Positions 27,701 through 30,700 are shown, counted from the first letter of the stretch. The stretch is 64,000 nt of DNA from an archaeon (GCA_030636025.1 DAOVXQ010000005.1:12700-76699); one strand, 5' to 3'. Notes: generated from the letters alone by a model not told the origin. Program-made: numbers and translations.

Positions 27701-30700
27701 CAGTCAAACTAGGATTAGTAACATCAACCTCAAAACTCTTAAACTCACTCACAACATTCCCCGCAGTATCAGAAGTATAAACATCAAAAGTATGCGACCC
27801 CTCTGTCAAACCAGCCTCACTAAACTCCAACTTCGTCGCATTATAAATTGCCAAGATTTCATCAGATGTCAAAGACTTATTGAAAATCATTACCTCGTCG
27901 ATTGAGCCGTTGAATGGATAGATTGTCCCTCCATCATTATCTGAACCGATTGCAAATATTTGAGAAGTACAACTTACTAAACCTCCTCCAAAACTCTCAC
28001 TTTGTATTTCACTACCATCAAGATAAATTTTATGAGTTGTGCTATTGTAGGTTCCTACTATATGATACCACTGCCCTGTTTGTATTGAAGTTTGAACAAC
28101 ATTAACACTTGTACCATTTGAAACAACAAACAATGCGTCACCGCTTGTTACCATCATATAAAAACCAGTATTAGAACAGTGGTCATTAAGAAAACTTCCA
28201 CCCGCCGTCCATGTAGGTATAGAATCAGCTTTTATCCAAGCAGTTACTGAAATGCTTCCTGTTATATTCAAACTATCATCATTCCCACAATCAACATAAT
28301 CCCCCACCCCATCAAACTCAAATCCCTTCCCCATCTTCCCATTATCCACCTGCTTAGCATCCCCCTCGACACTCCCATTATTTGAATTCCCACTCCACAC
28401 ACCAAACCAAGGCCCGGCAGGGTCATCCCTTCGGGGACCCCGACTAACCAAAACAATATCATTCCCGACATCAACATCGTAAATCTTCCCCGAATAATCA
28501 ACCTTCTCAATCCCCAAAACCCTAACAGGCTCATTATTCTCATTTAAGAAATAAACATCTGGCTCCGCAGAGTCATGCCCATTTAGGGCCTCTCCTTGTT
28601 CAAACCGAGAGTAAGTTTCTGTGACCTGCTCTAAAGAGAAATCAGATAAATCTTTTGAACCAAAAGATTTATAAGTCTCAACATAATTATGTTCACATAC
28701 AGAATCACCTAAAGGATTAAAAATGGCAACAGTAACATTATCAATTTCAGAAGAATTAAAATCTAAGATGGACAAACATCCTAAAATTAAATGGTCTGAA
28801 ATATTTAGAAGAATGATATCCTCAAAAGTAGAACAATTAAAAAGATTAGAAGGGAGCAAACTATAAATGGCATCTGTAACTTTTTCAGTTCCTAACGAGG
28901 TTAAACTTGAAATGAAAGAACTATCTTGGGTAAACTGGTCAGAACTTGCAAGACAAGAAGTTATCAAACAAGATGAAAAAGCAGAATTATTTGAAGAACT
29001 TGAAGAACTAACAAAAGACAGTAAATTAACAGATGAAGATTGTTTAAAATTTGCTAAACTTGTCAAAGAAAGATTTGCAAAAGAGTCAAGAGGCAGATAA
29101 ATGAAACTAGTCATCGACGCTAACATCGCATTCTCACTATTAAAAAAAGGTTCATTCACAAGAAAATTATCACACAAACACTCATTAGATTTATATTCAC
29201 ATAAATTTATCTTAGAGGAATTAGAAGAACATTCTAATGAACTTTGCGAATTACTCAAAATTTCTGAAGATAAATTTGAAAGAATAAAAGAAATATTATC
29301 AAAATTAGTTAATTTAAAAATCAAAGTTTCCCCACAACAATTAAATTGGGCAAACTCGTTATTATCAGACCCCGACGATAAACAATATTTAGCATTATCA
29401 CTAAAACTAAATTGCCCGCTCTGGTCAGAAGACTCGCATTTCAAAGAACAATCAATTATCGAAGTATTCACAACATCTGAACTTAAGGATTTCTTAGAAG
29501 AATAAACCTTATGCTCAGGGCTAACAACCAAATCCCCCTCTGAAGTCTCAATTTTATACATCTCGCCCCTATAATCATAAATCTGTTTTTCAAATGGCTC
29601 TTGATATTCCGCCTCGCCAGTCTCAGAATTCAAAGTCATAACCATCTCATCATCTTCTAATTCACTAAACAACTTCCACCCCTCATCAGTCAAAATCTTT
29701 GTCTCATCATCATAACAATGCATATAATCAACAACATCCCCACTCCCATTAACATCATCCATTCTCCACCAGCTAACTAAAGAACTGTCCAAATTAGGAA
29801 CAATAAACCCGCTCCCACTCTCAGAAGAAGAAACATTAATCAAAACACTCGAACTATTATAAGATGCATTCAACGGACTATTAACCGTCAGCGTCGGCAA
29901 AGTCACATCCACACTCACATTATAACTCGTCTGAGAAGCAACATTCCCCCCAACATCTTGACTATAAAACGTAACATCATTTGTGCCTTCTGGTATATTT
30001 ATTGAAGTATTCAAATATTGGCTCGAAGTATTTGCATAAAGTCCTTGTATTTCTTCTGCACTCAAACTTCTGTTAAAAATCATAACGTCGTCGATGGTGC
30101 CGTTGAAATCTCTATTCAGTCCCAAATCCTTCATACCAATAAGGAGATTAGCAGTAGTAGTGAAGATATCAATAGATCTATTGGCTTGAAAATCATAAGA
30201 TGCTTCTGAACCATCAATGTATATATGTAATAATGTATCTCCATTTTTATCCCAAGTCCCAATTATATTATGCCACACATTATGGCTAATAGTTGTACTA
30301 CTATCTGCTTGAATAAAAGTTGTTGAACTATTACCCAAAATAAAATCTATAGTTGTATAATCAATCTGAAGTCCATACTGAATAGTATTAGGATAACCAT
30401 TTAATTTTTTACCAACAATATAATACATATCTCCAACAGGACCAATTGGATAGACCCACGCAGAAATTGTAATCGCATCAGTTATATTCAACCTCTCCCC
30501 ATTCCCACAATCAACCCAATCCCCCGCCCCATCAAACTCAAACCCTTTCCCCATCTTCCCTGCATCAGTCTGAACCGCATTCCCCTCAACACTCCCATTA
30601 TTCCTCCCCATATAATCAAACACCGTCGAGGAATTCGCATCATCCATTCTCCACCAACTCACCAAACCATAATCATTAAACACCGAAACATTATTACTAT

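What the first reader, a model, noticed from the sequence alone, without database searches (positions are those of the whole stretch)
28723..29505. Antisense RHH-RHH-PIN toxin-antitoxin operon fills the homing-endonuclease slot of intein 2
Canonical inteins carry a LAGLIDADG or HNH endonuclease between Hint block B and block F. Here the plus strand of that interval carries three abutting ORFs: 47 aa, 77 aa and 134 aa, joined TAA|ATG twice. The last has PIN-domain hallmarks (MKLVIDANI, SDPDDKQYLALSL, LWSEDSHF). The first two have RHH-antitoxin-like N-termini (M..VT[LF]S[IV]..E.K..M). The PIN stop at 29505 abuts the codons for block B on the other strand. I saw no endonuclease motif on either strand. 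The host frame stays open across the whole cassette but encodes only Ser/Asn/Leu-rich low complexity there. To my knowledge a TA module as intein cargo has not been described, and antisense cargo even less so. Inference: the TA pair may act as an addiction module for the intein, or splicing may make the intein a harmless landing pad for the TA.
Basis: partly seen in the sequence, partly recalled or inferred. Interest (0 to 1): 0.92.

Follow-up and report, generated by a model that had tools for sequence, protein, structure and literature searches.

The report
Toxin-antitoxin operons encoded antisense inside inteins
A self-splicing protein insert (intein) in a giant archaeal surface-protein gene carries, on its opposite DNA strand, a complete toxin-antitoxin operon where a homing endonuclease normally sits, and the same arrangement recurs in about 60 related inteins from DPANN archaea, so it is a conserved and apparently undescribed kind of composite selfish element.

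Summary
Window 28723-29505 (+) encodes two small RHH-type antitoxin-like ORFs and a PIN_2 toxin. The operon has its own archaeal BRE/TATA promoter and a 14-nt palindromic operator. It lies antisense in the endonuclease slot of a Hint-fold intein (28386-29717, -), which interrupts a 4195-aa Laminin_G_3-repeat surface protein.

The host frame stays open across the cassette. The sister intein (31566-33509) carries a VapB-PIN pair and also a RelE/YafQ pair.

Fifty-four related DPANN loci gave about 59 distinct inteins carrying 110 antisense cargo genes: VapB-PIN, RelE, DUF433-DUF5615 and DUF2283-nuclease. No endonuclease was found. I counted no host-frame stop where about 196 are expected from extein codon usage. 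A free-standing copy of the same cassette does have antisense stops.

Substitution patterns show purifying selection on the cargo frame. Public gene calls miss all seven cargo genes in the window.

Best reading: a mutualistic pair of selfish elements. Splicing makes the insertion harmless, and the toxin-antitoxin module blocks loss of the intein. The function is inferred, not shown. I found no prior description.

The parts
24741..37328 (-). Host gene: 4195-aa surface protein with N- and C-terminal hydrophobic anchors and Laminin_G_3 (ConA-like lectin) repeats, interrupted by two inteins
   Evidence: ORF. Laminin_G_3 E 1e-51 to 3e-84 on the extein segments. This is the only gene called here in the public record.
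28386..29717 (-). Intein 2 (444 aa): Cys1 ... GVWSGN, followed by Ser+1. It is inserted in the repeat motif DYM[GR]NNGSVEG, which is intact in three other repeats.
   Evidence: junction DYMH|C...N|SNNGSVEG versus DYMGRNNGSVEG. Hint fold.
29496..29717 (-). Intein 2 N-terminal Hint half (block A CYDDETKILT, block B SPEHKVY)
   Evidence: tblastn and motif parsing. PDB profile hits to inteins.
28386..28670 (-). Intein 2 C-terminal Hint half (block F IYDVDVGNDIVLV, block G GVWSGN)
   Evidence: The AF2 model of the cargo-free mini-intein has pLDDT 86.7. Foldseek top hits are all inteins, BIL or Hedgehog Hint domains.
28661..28676 (+). BRE/TATA-like promoter of the cargo operon (CCAAAAGATTTATAAG). 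In the host frame it reads ...YKSF... just before the C-terminal Hint half.
   Evidence: A TATA-like octamer lies within 90 nt upstream of 44 of 48 operon-first cargo genes, against 8% background. The window's copy is a near-match: it ends in G, so it fails the strict octamer used for that count. The same promoter architecture occurs in a free-standing copy of the cassette (L059).
28680..28693 (.). Perfect 14-nt palindrome AACATAATTATGTT between the TATA box and the start codon: candidate antitoxin operator
   Evidence: Related palindromes occupy the same position in L034, L035, L047, L059 and L061.
28723..28866 (+). 47-aa RHH-type antitoxin-like ORF (first gene of the operon)
   Evidence: NCBIfam VapB NF050799 E 3e-8. 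Homologous 47-aa genes in L059-L063 carry Pfam RHH_12. The same three-gene layout occurs in L004, L028 and L035.
28867..29100 (+). 77-aa RHH-type antitoxin-like ORF (VapB-like)
   Evidence: NCBIfam VapB E 7e-6. About 80% identical to the L061 77-aa protein annotated RHH_12. The AF2 model is low-confidence: extended N-terminus plus helices.
29101..29505 (+). 134-aa PIN_2-domain toxin
   Evidence: PF10130 E 3e-19. D6, E40 and D93 are conserved in 27-28 of 28 family members. There are 84 close homologues in public data.
31566..33509 (-). Intein 1 (648 aa), same family, carrying two antisense cassettes in two different loops
31882..32529 (+). Intein 1, endonuclease slot: VapB-like antitoxin (31882-32115) plus PIN_2 toxin (32116-32529). 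The promoter ATTTAAAT lies at 31823-31830.
   Evidence: PIN_2 E 5e-27. VapB E 1.5e-6. Promoter.
32785..33320 (+). Intein 1, slot between block A and the rest of the N-half: 90-aa antitoxin-like ORF (32785-33057) plus 88-aa RelE/YafQ-family toxin (33054-33320, ATGA overlap). The promoter CTTAAATA lies at 32749-32756.
   Evidence: TIGR00053 YafQ E 8e-12. ParE_toxin weak hit. The relE gene is codon-aligned antisense to the host and has no TTA, CTA or TCA codon (P about 0.005).
33321..33479 (.). GC-rich stretch with short hairpins (CCTGCAACGCAGG, CCTGCAAGCAGG) between the relE stop and block A of intein 1; function unknown
   Evidence: No tRNA or Rfam match.

Best explanation
SHOWN BY SEQUENCE
- Window 28723-29505 is a complete, independently promoted type II toxin-antitoxin operon: two RHH-type antitoxin-like genes plus a PIN_2 RNase-type toxin.
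- It lies on the strand opposite to a class-1-like intein that interrupts a Laminin_G_3-repeat surface protein of a DPANN archaeon.
- The operon occupies the loop between Hint blocks B and F, where inteins normally carry a homing endonuclease.
- The host frame is kept free of stop codons across the whole cassette by selection on the cargo's codon choice.

INFERRED, HOW IT WORKS
1. Ribosomes translate straight through about 270 residues of meaningless Ser/Asn/Leu-rich linker.
2. The two Hint halves associate and protein splicing removes the linker together with the intein. This restores the lectin repeat (DYMH-SNNGSVEG).
3. The toxin-antitoxin operon is transcribed in the opposite direction from its own BRE/TATA promoter. 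The antitoxin represses it at the palindrome AACATAATTATGTT.

INFERRED, WHY IT PERSISTS
- The pairing benefits both selfish elements. Splicing makes an otherwise gene-breaking insertion harmless. This matters in a very compact genome with little intergenic space.
- The toxin-antitoxin module penalises any cell that loses the intein. Loss could occur, for example, by gene conversion from one of the many intein-free repeats of the same gene. The stable toxin then outlasts the labile antitoxin.
- So the intein persists and accumulates in repeats without a homing endonuclease.
- Cassettes are exchanged between inteins by recombination in the conserved Hint-coding flanks.
For: CARGO GENES ARE REAL
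- PIN_2 E 3e-19 and 5e-27, YafQ E 8e-12, VapB E 3e-8. Homologues carry RHH_12. DUF433, DUF5615 and DUF2283 are found in relatives.
- PIN acidic residues are conserved.
- In codon-aligned genes, substitutions concentrate at the cargo's third codon positions. Cargo amino-acid identity is 59-75%, against 43-51% for the host frame over the same DNA.

INDEPENDENT EXPRESSION SIGNALS
- A TATA-like octamer lies upstream of 44 of 48 operons, against 8% background. Nineteen sit exactly 30 nt from the start codon.
- The same promoter and operator occur in a free-standing copy.

THE HOST ELEMENT IS AN INTEIN
- PDB profile hits: PI-PkoII 3e-6, KlbA 2e-5.
- AF2 pLDDT 86.7. Foldseek top 50 hits are all Hint domains.
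- Cys/Ser1, S/TxxH, terminal Asn and Ser+1 are conserved.
- The extein repeat is restored on excision.

THE HOST FRAME IS KEPT OPEN BY SELECTION
- 0 stops in about 59 inteins and 110 cargo genes, where about 196 are expected (log10 P about -115).
- Each cargo family has a fixed phase.
- The free-standing relative L059 (PIN 81% identical) has 3, 1 and 2 antisense stops.

RETENTION AND CASSETTE EXCHANGE
- Nearly all main-clade inteins carry cargo. None has room for an endonuclease.
- Hint identity and PIN identity are uncorrelated (r = 0.01). Inteins within one gene carry different toxin-antitoxin families.
- In the window, the Hint flanks of the two inteins are 94-96% identical in DNA, but the PIN proteins are only 43% identical.
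- Cassettes survive in a decayed intein remnant (L061).
Against: - No expression, splicing or toxicity data exist for any member.
- The penultimate intein residue is Gly, not the usual His.
- A 230-600-residue junk linker, and insertions in three different loops, might impair splicing.
- The addiction argument is indirect. The same pattern (cargo nearly always present) would also arise if inteins are simply the only tolerated landing sites.
- Two similar cassettes in one cell could cross-neutralise and weaken addiction.
- The RHH fold of the antitoxins is not shown directly: there is no PDB hit and the model is low-confidence.
- Conservation of the catalytic residues was counted partly with motif patterns that require them.
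- Short contigs L001 and L003 show the host ORF stopping after the N-half, so read-through is not universal.
Confidence: 0.6

Rival explanations
1. Pure hitch-hiking (safe haven only). Toxin-antitoxin cassettes, and tRNA genes in relatives, use the intein as one of the few neutral insertion sites in a compact genome. Splicing hides the damage. The cargo gives the intein no retention or spreading advantage.
For: - Cargo is heterogeneous: four toxin-antitoxin families plus sense-strand tRNA genes.
- Cargo sits in three different loops.
- The same cassette also exists free-standing and in an integrase-linked array.
- Cargo and Hint histories are uncoupled.
Against: - Cargo-free members of the main clade are rare, although natural mini-inteins show that the empty state is viable.
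- Toxin-antitoxin modules are by nature retention devices (established knowledge of plasmid and integron addiction).
- Different inteins within one gene carry non-redundant families. That is expected if each must be individually addictive.
Confidence: 0.25
2. Host-serving regulation or defence. The antisense operons are kept because convergent transcription or antisense RNA couples toxin-antitoxin activity to expression of the surface protein, or because the toxins act in abortive infection. The intein is only the structural solution for nesting them.
For: - Strong consensus promoters fire head-on into the host gene.
- Surface proteins of episymbiotic DPANN are plausible virus or host-contact targets (inference).
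- One weak PADLOC candidate hit for VapB1.
Against: - No defence-system match for the toxins.
- The same cassettes work in free-standing contexts with the same promoter.
- Cargo type and slot vary freely between inteins. That argues against a tuned regulatory circuit.
Confidence: 0.1
3. The toxins replace the homing endonuclease. PIN, RelE-fold or Mut7-C-like nucleases cut intein-free repeats or alleles and drive homing.
For: - All cargo toxins are nucleases, and no classical endonuclease is present.
- The intein occupies several distinct target motifs and is multi-copy within genes.
Against: - Each nuclease comes with a cognate antitoxin and an autoregulated promoter. This is the signature of toxin-antitoxin modules whose known members cleave RNA (established knowledge).
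- Four unrelated nuclease folds would have to recognise the same DNA targets.
- The cargo is not part of the intein polypeptide.
Confidence: 0.04
4. Artefact or chance. Either the plus-strand ORFs are spurious shadows of the host frame, or the giant ORF is not really translated here (pseudogene, split intein or assembly error).
For: - The antisense frame with coincident wobble positions is intrinsically stop-poor, so a single case is only modestly improbable.
- Relatives L001, L003 and L048 have an interrupted host frame.
Against: - Above-threshold profile hits to four unrelated toxin-antitoxin families.
- Conserved promoters.
- Purifying selection on the cargo frame.
- 0 of about 196 expected stops across independent species-level genomes.
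- Both Hint halves are in frame in 63 of 64 pairs, 59 after removing duplicate loci.
Confidence: 0.01

Closest known systems
Bifunctional inteins with an in-frame homing endonuclease (LAGLIDADG or HNH) between Hint blocks B and F
   Same: - A selfish gene is nested in the same loop of a Hint-fold protein-splicing element.
- The element is inserted in frame at a conserved site of a host protein.
- The nested sequence is removed from the host protein by splicing.
   Different: - The cargo is not part of the intein polypeptide. It is a separate operon on the other strand, with its own promoter.
- It is a retention device (toxin-antitoxin), not a spreading device (endonuclease).
- Cargo also occupies two further loops (A-B and F-G), whereas endonuclease domains are reported at one highly conserved site (PMC6801210).
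- The host is a surface lectin-repeat protein, not a replication or repair enzyme.
[quoted passage not shown] 2009, PMC2677866)
   Same: - An independent gene with its own control elements lies between the DNA for the N- and C-terminal intein halves.
- It was found in metagenomic data.
   Different: - There the host gene is broken into two ORFs that rely on trans-splicing, and the cargo is an endonuclease. Here the host frame is continuous and the cargo is a toxin-antitoxin operon.
- Only L001 and L003 (host stop after the N-half; a sense-strand SLFN_AlbA_2 gene) hint at a fractured variant.
Toxin-antitoxin modules as stabilising cargo of mobile elements (plasmid addiction systems; cassettes in chromosomal superintegrons)
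   Same: - Small autoregulated two- or three-gene cassettes (RHH antitoxin plus PIN or RelE toxin) sit inside another mobile or unstable element.
- There are several non-redundant families per genome.
- An integrase-linked array of the same cassettes exists (L063).
   Different: - The carrier is a protein-splicing element inside a coding gene.
- The cassette must be dual-coding: its antisense strand has to stay stop-free.
- No recombination site comparable to attC has been shown in the intein-borne copies.
Hint domains in polymorphic toxin systems and bacterial intein-like (BIL) domains of surface or secreted proteins (e.g. PMC3113570)
   Same: - A Hint domain lies within a large, repetitive, variable surface protein, associated with toxins and their neutralisers.
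- BIL structures are among the best structural matches.
   Different: - There the Hint domain releases a C-terminal toxin domain of the same polypeptide, and the immunity gene follows downstream.
- Here the Hint has the full splicing set (Cys1, terminal Asn, Ser+1), excision restores the extein repeat, and the toxins are separate cytoplasmic type II modules on the other strand.
Long antisense overlapping genes in prokaryotes
   Same: Two reading frames on opposite strands of the same DNA, mostly in the phase where the wobble positions coincide.
   Different: - Here whole operons (0.6-1.8 kb) are nested.
- Only one frame (the cargo) is selected for its protein. The other is selected merely to lack stops, because its product is discarded by splicing.
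- The case is supported by more than 100 independent genes rather than a single contested example.

Membership tests
Intein (class 1 protein-splicing element) | Hint fold | tested here: met
   The AF2 model of the cargo-free intein 2 has pLDDT 86.7. Foldseek top hits are all inteins, BIL or Hedgehog Hint, E down to 8e-7. Profile hits to PI-PkoII and KlbA inteins. Pfam Intein_splicing gives only a weak hit, E 1e-3, below its cut-off.
Intein (class 1 protein-splicing element) | Catalytic set: Cys/Ser at position 1, block B Thr/Ser-x-x-His, C-terminal Asn, and Ser/Thr/Cys at +1 | tested here: met
   Window: C1, SPEH...SGN|S. Family: position 1 is C in 34 and S in 5; S/TxxH in 53 of 53; Asn in 56 of 56; Ser+1 in 51 of 56 (the counts partly depend on the motif patterns used). 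The penultimate His is replaced by Gly.
Intein (class 1 protein-splicing element) | In-frame insertion at a conserved host site, with the extein restored on excision | tested here: met
   DYMH|intein|SNNGSVEG versus the intact DYMGRNNGSVEG in three other repeats of the same protein. Relatives sit in DxSG[HY]|...|SNNGT at the start of Laminin_G_3.
Intein (class 1 protein-splicing element) | Demonstrated protein splicing | not testable with these tools
   Needs a reporter or proteomic experiment.
Endonuclease-containing (bifunctional) intein | LAGLIDADG, HNH or other homing-endonuclease domain in frame between blocks B and F | tested here: not met
   No such Pfam hit on the intein translations. 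In relatives the slot length is accounted for by antisense cargo, typically with fewer than 20 unexplained residues.
Type II toxin-antitoxin system, VapBC type | PIN-domain toxin with conserved acidic active-site residues | tested here: met
   PF10130 E 3e-19, above the gathering score. D6, E40 and D93 are conserved in 27-28 of 28 members.
Type II toxin-antitoxin system, VapBC type | Small antitoxin gene immediately upstream, in one operon, with a DNA-binding (RHH or AbrB) N-terminus | tested here: inconclusive
   The gene order and abutting TAA|ATG junctions are met. There is a VapB NCBIfam hit below its cut-off. Homologues about 80% identical carry Pfam RHH_12. There is no direct Pfam hit in the copy available here, no PDB hit, and the AF2 model has pLDDT of only 64.5.
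Type II toxin-antitoxin system, VapBC type | Autoregulated promoter with a palindromic operator | tested here: met
   Met at the sequence level only. BRE/TATA at 28661-28676 and a 14-nt perfect palindrome at 28680-28693. The same layout occurs in relatives and in free-standing copies. Binding was not tested.
Type II toxin-antitoxin system, VapBC type | Toxicity of the toxin and neutralisation by the antitoxin | not testable with these tools
   Needs expression assays.
RelBE/YafQ-type toxin-antitoxin system (second cassette of intein 1) | RelE/YafQ-fold toxin with an upstream overlapping antitoxin gene | tested here: inconclusive
   TIGR00053 E 8e-12 but below the subfamily cut-off; ParE_toxin weak hit. 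ATGA overlap with a 90-aa upstream ORF. The pair is conserved in at least 10 inteins.
Fractured gene / split intein | Host gene broken into two ORFs, each ending or starting with an intein half | tested here: not met
   The host frame is continuous in the window and in 63 of 64 N/C pairs. It may be met in L001 and L003.
Bacterial intein-like (BIL) / processing Hint domain | Lacks the +1 nucleophile and/or the C-terminal Asn; cleaves rather than splices | tested here: not met
   The main family has Asn plus Ser+1. A distant cargo-free subgroup (L022, L023, L056, L057) has Ser1 and Leu at +1 and may be BIL-like.

The most novel reading that the evidence does not exclude
DPANN archaea harbour a previously unrecognised class of endonuclease-free 'addiction inteins'.
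- The inteins have two or three cargo loops that act as cassette platforms.
- They carry fully nested antisense toxin-antitoxin operons and, in relatives, sense-strand class-II-like tRNA genes.
- The element persists and multiplies among the repeats of giant surface-protein genes through post-segregational killing plus gene conversion, not homing.
- It imposes kilobase-scale obligate dual coding, in which one strand is selected for protein function and the other only for the absence of stops.
- Because gene callers keep only the giant ORF, this gene pool is invisible in current annotations.
Probability: 0.45. Interest if true: 0.95.

Novelty: categorically new. Interest (0 to 1): 0.9.

Why it matters
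- Intein persistence. It would show a second way for an intein to persist: retention by an addiction module rather than spread by a homing endonuclease. It would also show that two unrelated selfish elements can fuse into one unit in which each cancels the other's cost.
- Overlapping genes. It gives the clearest natural example so far of long antisense overlapping coding with an obvious reason. The sense product is thrown away by splicing, so only 'no stop codons' is required. More than 100 independent genes show measurable codon-level adaptation.
- Annotation. A whole set of toxin-antitoxin genes, and some tRNA genes, in DPANN genomes is missed because pipelines forbid genes nested in a giant ORF.
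- Protein engineering. These inteins appear to tolerate 230-600-residue unstructured insertions in three different loops.

Tried and rejected
CHANCE OPENNESS
- For the single cassette, synonymous resampling gave only a modest P (0.04 for PIN2; other genes 0.2-0.9). I therefore did not rely on the window alone and went to related loci.

PARTS I COULD NOT CONFIRM DIRECTLY
- Pfam Intein_splicing is below threshold. I replaced it with a PDB profile search and a structure prediction.
- The RHH fold was not settled: the PDB profile search gave only coiled-coil noise and the AF2 model was low-confidence.
- PIN2 against PDB sequences gave nothing.
- PADLOC gave no defence-system match apart from one weak candidate hit.

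SEARCHES THAT RETURNED LITTLE
- The protein-database search with the mini-intein found only 3 fragments.
- The first two search for related loci attempts failed because the alignment was too gappy.
- Looking for free-standing controls in the flanks of the loci found none. All 134 family members lie inside host ORFs. Controls came instead from contexts of PIN homologues.

HYPOTHESES REJECTED
- tRNA or Rfam elements in the window's inteins: none.
- 'CY...CY' as a target-site duplication in intein 1: rejected. The flanks ILTLEEVDCG ... KCYIKxWKxF are conserved features of a subfamily slot.

LITERATURE
- Ten full-text searches combined 'intein' with toxin-antitoxin, DPANN, antisense, PIN, VapBC, opposite strand, Hint domain, cargo and overlapping gene. 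No description of this arrangement was found.
- The library lacks most subscription journals, so absence is not proof.
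Full report
WHAT IS AT THE COORDINATES

The window (32% GC) contains a 12.6-kb minus-strand ORF (24741-37328, 4195 aa). Its extein segments are Laminin_G_3 / ConA-like lectin repeats (E 1e-51 to 3e-84).

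Two insertions of the same kind interrupt it.
- Intein 2 spans 28386-29717 (444 aa).
- Intein 1 spans 31566-33509 (648 aa).
- Both begin with Cys and end ...GVWSGN followed by Ser.
- Intein 2 sits in the motif DYM[GR]NNGSVEG, which is intact in three other repeats of the same protein. Excision would restore a repeat of the normal length (DYMH-SNNGSVEG).

On the plus strand inside intein 2 lie three ORFs in one frame:
- 28723-28866 (47 aa),
- 28867-29100 (77 aa),
- 29101-29505 (134 aa).

ARE THE PLUS-STRAND ORFS GENES?

- The 134-aa ORF is a PIN_2 domain (PF10130, E 3e-19, above the gathering score). It carries the acidic residues conserved in the family: D6, E40 and D93 in 27-28 of 28 members.
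- The two small ORFs match the NCBIfam VapB antitoxin model at E 3e-8 and 7e-6, below its strict cut-off.
- Their roughly 80%-identical counterparts in other contigs carry precomputed Pfam RHH_12 hits.
- I could not demonstrate the RHH fold directly. There was no PDB hit and the AF2 model had pLDDT of only 64.5.

Intein 1 carries a paralogous VapB-like/PIN_2 pair (31882-32529; PIN_2 E 5e-27). It has a 90-aa antitoxin-like ORF overlapping by ATGA an 88-aa RelE/YafQ-family toxin (TIGR00053, E 8e-12).

IS THE HOST ELEMENT AN INTEIN, AND IS THERE AN ENDONUCLEASE?

Pfam's Intein_splicing model gives only a weak hit, and no LAGLIDADG or HNH domain is found. I therefore used three other tests.
- A profile of 25 cargo-free versions of this family hits solved inteins: PI-PkoII 3e-6, KlbA 2e-5, an NrdHF intein 5e-4.
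- The AF2 model of intein 2 with the cassette removed is confident (pLDDT 86.7).
- All of its best 50 structural matches are inteins, BIL or Hedgehog Hint domains.

The cassette lies between block B (SPEHKVY) and block F (IYDVDVGNDIVLV). The PIN stop codon overlaps, antisense, the last codons after block B.

IS THE OPEN HOST FRAME MORE THAN CHANCE?

Six of the seven cargo genes in the window lie in the antisense phase where cargo and host wobble positions coincide. That phase is intrinsically poor in stops. For one cassette the evidence is therefore modest: P(no stop) is about 0.04 for PIN2 under genome codon usage and higher for the small genes. The relE gene is codon-aligned with the host and contains no TTA, CTA or TCA codon (P about 0.005).

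The decisive evidence comes from relatives.
- Sampling. Searching public contigs with the C-terminal Hint half returned 54 loci. These were 21 metagenomic contigs and 33 from species-representative genomes, mostly Woesearchaeota, Pacearchaeota, Nanoarchaeota or unclassified archaea, plus three contigs from bins labelled otherwise.
- Frame continuity. In 63 of 64 N-half/C-half pairs (59 after removing duplicate loci) both halves are in one frame with no stop between them.
- Cargo. The intervening 0.6-1.8 kb always contains antisense cassettes.
- Stop count. I called 110 antisense cargo genes. If they used extein codon usage, about 196 host-frame stops would be expected. None is observed (log10 P about -115).
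- Fixed phase. VapB-like, PIN_2, DUF5615 and DUF2283 genes have wobble on wobble. RelE, DUF433 and a classic PIN are codon-aligned and devoid of TTA, CTA and TCA.
- Natural control. A truly free-standing copy of the same RHH-RHH-PIN cassette (L059; PIN 81% identical to the window's) has no flanking Hint halves. It has 3, 1 and 2 stops in that antisense frame.

WHICH FRAME IS UNDER PROTEIN-LEVEL SELECTION?

- In the codon-aligned genes, differences between relatives concentrate at the cargo's third positions. Cargo amino-acid identity is 59-75%, against 43-51% for the host frame over the same DNA.
- In the wobble-on-wobble genes, the cargo's second positions vary least. Cargo identity is at least as high as host-frame identity in 15 of 17 comparisons.
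- So the cargo proteins are selected, and the host frame is selected only to lack stops.

EXPRESSION SIGNALS

- Upstream of 44 of 48 operon-first cargo genes lies a TATA-like octamer, usually preceded by an A-rich BRE-like stretch (AAAGATTTATA, AAAGTTTTTTATA). The background is 8% of random 90-nt windows.
- Nineteen of these lie exactly 30 nt from the start codon, which suggests leaderless transcripts.
- A second class lies 51-64 nt upstream and has a palindrome and a GGAGG-like site in between.
- The window's cassette belongs to the second class. CCAAAAGATTTATAAG lies at 28661-28676 and the perfect palindrome AACATAATTATGTT at 28680-28693.
- The same promoter-operator layout is present in free-standing copies (L059, L061). 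It therefore belongs to the cassette.
- In the host frame the promoter reads YK[SK][FL], just before the C-terminal Hint half.

SCOPE OF THE PHENOMENON

- Cargo families: VapB-like + PIN_2; antitoxin + RelE/YafQ; DUF433 (E 3e-21) + DUF5615/Mut7-C-like (E 2e-16); DUF2283 + a PBECR3-like nuclease; and a classic PIN.
- Slots: cargo occupies three zones of the Hint fold.
  - The classical endonuclease slot (43 cases).
  - The A-B region (11 cases). One subfamily here has conserved flanks ILTLEEVDCG...KCYIKxWKxF, to which the window's intein 1 belongs.
  - The F-G loop (22 cases).
- Stacks of two or three cassettes occur (L035, L025, L038, L044, L046).
- In the endonuclease slot the cargo accounts for nearly all of the extra length, so there is no room for an endonuclease.
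- Natural mini-inteins exist.
- With local profiles, all 134 detected members of the five main cargo families in the loci and the window lie antisense inside host ORFs.
- The inteins occupy several distinct extein motifs, most often DxSG[HY]|...|SNNGT at the start of Laminin_G_3, and are often multi-copy within one gene.

CASSETTE AND INTEIN HAVE DIFFERENT HISTORIES

- Hint-core identity and PIN identity are uncorrelated across 325 pairs (r = 0.01).
- Near-identical PINs sit in ordinary-similarity Hints, and the reverse also occurs.
- Different inteins in one gene carry different toxin-antitoxin families.
- In the window, the Hint-coding flanks of the two inteins are 94-96% identical in DNA: 28591-28671 versus 31747-31827, 28444-28498 versus 31600-31654, and 29690-29721 versus 33482-33513. 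The PIN proteins are only 43% identical.
- This fits gene conversion between repeats and cassette exchange by recombination in the conserved flanks (inference).

HOW IT MOST LIKELY WORKS

Shown:
- a complete, promoted, selected toxin-antitoxin operon lies antisense within a Hint-fold insertion;
- the splicing residues and frame continuity of that insertion are conserved.

Inferred:
- The precursor is translated through the junk linker.
- The Hint halves associate and splice, discarding the linker.
- The operon is transcribed head-on from its own promoter and is autoregulated at the palindrome.
- The pairing is mutualistic. Splicing neutralises the insertion in a compact genome. The toxin-antitoxin module penalises loss of the intein, which would otherwise be easy through gene conversion from the many empty repeats.
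- That would explain three observations: main-clade members almost always carry cargo, no endonuclease is needed, and co-resident inteins carry non-redundant modules.

I put 0.6 on this combined account. The architecture alone is close to certain. The addiction component is about even odds against pure hitch-hiking.

RIVALS

- Pure safe-haven hitch-hiking (0.25).
- Host-serving regulation or defence (0.1).
- Toxins acting as substitute homing nucleases (0.04).
- Artefact or chance (0.01).

COMPARISON WITH WHAT IS KNOWN

The nearest relatives in concept are:
- endonuclease-bearing inteins (same slot, but in-frame cargo that drives spread);
- 'fractured genes' (a free-standing endonuclease gene between split-intein halves, with the host gene broken; PMC2677866);
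- toxin-antitoxin cassettes stabilising plasmids and integrons;
- Hint domains of polymorphic toxin systems.

None combines a continuous host frame, antisense nested operons and toxin-antitoxin cargo.

Ten full-text searches found no description. The library omits most subscription journals. The public record of this very contig annotates only the giant ORF and none of the seven antisense genes, which may explain why the arrangement has gone unnoticed.

VERDICT

- The parts are known kinds, but the architecture has no described counterpart.
- Interest is high (0.9).
- The main caveat is that there is no expression, splicing or toxicity evidence at all.

Noticed in passing
L013 5905-5992 and 11619-11702; L029 912-996, 5064-5148, 8421-8504; L042 (four copies); L005 764-848; L024 6564-6647; L049 4936-5018; others: Many related inteins, but not the window's two, carry sense-strand tRNA genes inside the host ORF, with the frame still open.
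- They are 82-92 nt long, with a class-II-like long variable arm and an encoded GCCA 3' end.
- ARAGORN anticodons are mostly GAT, also CAA, AAT, CTC and GAA.
- Rfam tRNA scores are 35-54 bits, against a gathering score of 29.
- Each has an upstream TATA-like AACTATATAAA, which reads 'NYINVS' in the host frame.
- A class-II body with an Ile, Phe or Glu anticodon is odd.
   Followed up: partly
window 32785-33320 (+) within intein 1; L029 2044-2845, L012 6154-7186, L019 6133-6844, L052 3855-4728: Cargo is not confined to the endonuclease slot.
- The window's intein 1 has a RelE/YafQ cassette just after block A.
- Relatives carry RelE or DUF433/DUF5615 cassettes between blocks F and G.
- L019 has a PIN cassette just before block B.
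- Endonuclease domains are reported at a single conserved site (PMC6801210).
   Followed up: yes
L063 1-8405: The same RHH-RHH-PIN and RelE cassettes occur without Hint halves, in an array.
- The cassettes are separated by repeats: a 73-nt repeat in four copies, and a 79-nt repeat at 99% identity that contains a hairpin plus T-run and the BRE/TATA.
- A Phage_integrase gene lies next to the array (6894-8060).
- The antisense frames are still open (334 and 319 codons).
- This could be an integron-like cassette array or the remains of a decayed giant gene.
   Followed up: partly
L061 1292-2350 (-): A decayed intein remnant. The antisense ORF over the cassette is still open (352 aa) and starts with a degenerate block B (GLVVSEKYKVY, with His replaced by Tyr), but no C-terminal Hint half follows. 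So the cassette outlives the intein.
   Followed up: partly
L001 2210-2566; L003 34-909: In two short, low-coverage contigs the host ORF stops 30-45 codons after block B. In L003 a sense-strand SLFN_AlbA_2 gene (E 3e-18) follows. These may be split-intein or 'fractured gene' variants, or degenerate copies.
   Followed up: partly
window 24741-37328; L058: The public gene calls for this contig (ENA ERZ23498475, scaffold_120) list only the giant ORF. None of the seven antisense cargo genes is on record. Close PIN homologues in the databases come mostly from ~1-kb contigs, where the giant ORF is truncated.
   Followed up: yes
window 33321-33479: A GC-rich (about 48%) stretch with short hairpins (CCTGCAACGCAGG, CCTGCAAGCAGG, GGGCATACCC) lies downstream of the relE stop and inside intein 1. 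It has no tRNA or Rfam match.
   Followed up: partly
L022 4377-4859, L023, L056, L057: A distant cargo-free subgroup of the same Hint family has Ser at position 1 and Leu at +1 (..AVWSSN|L), in a different extein. It may be BIL-like, cleaving rather than splicing.
   Followed up: no
window ~37647-37841 (-) (L058 1488-1682): Just upstream of the giant gene, on its strand, lie three small genes (76, 64 and 59 aa). The middle one is a DUF2283 protein, a family that is antisense intein cargo elsewhere (L029, L032).
   Followed up: no
L048 787-1853: This is the only N/C pair whose two Hint halves are in different frames. It is either a frameshifted pseudogene or an assembly error. Its VapB/PIN cargo is intact.
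   Followed up: no
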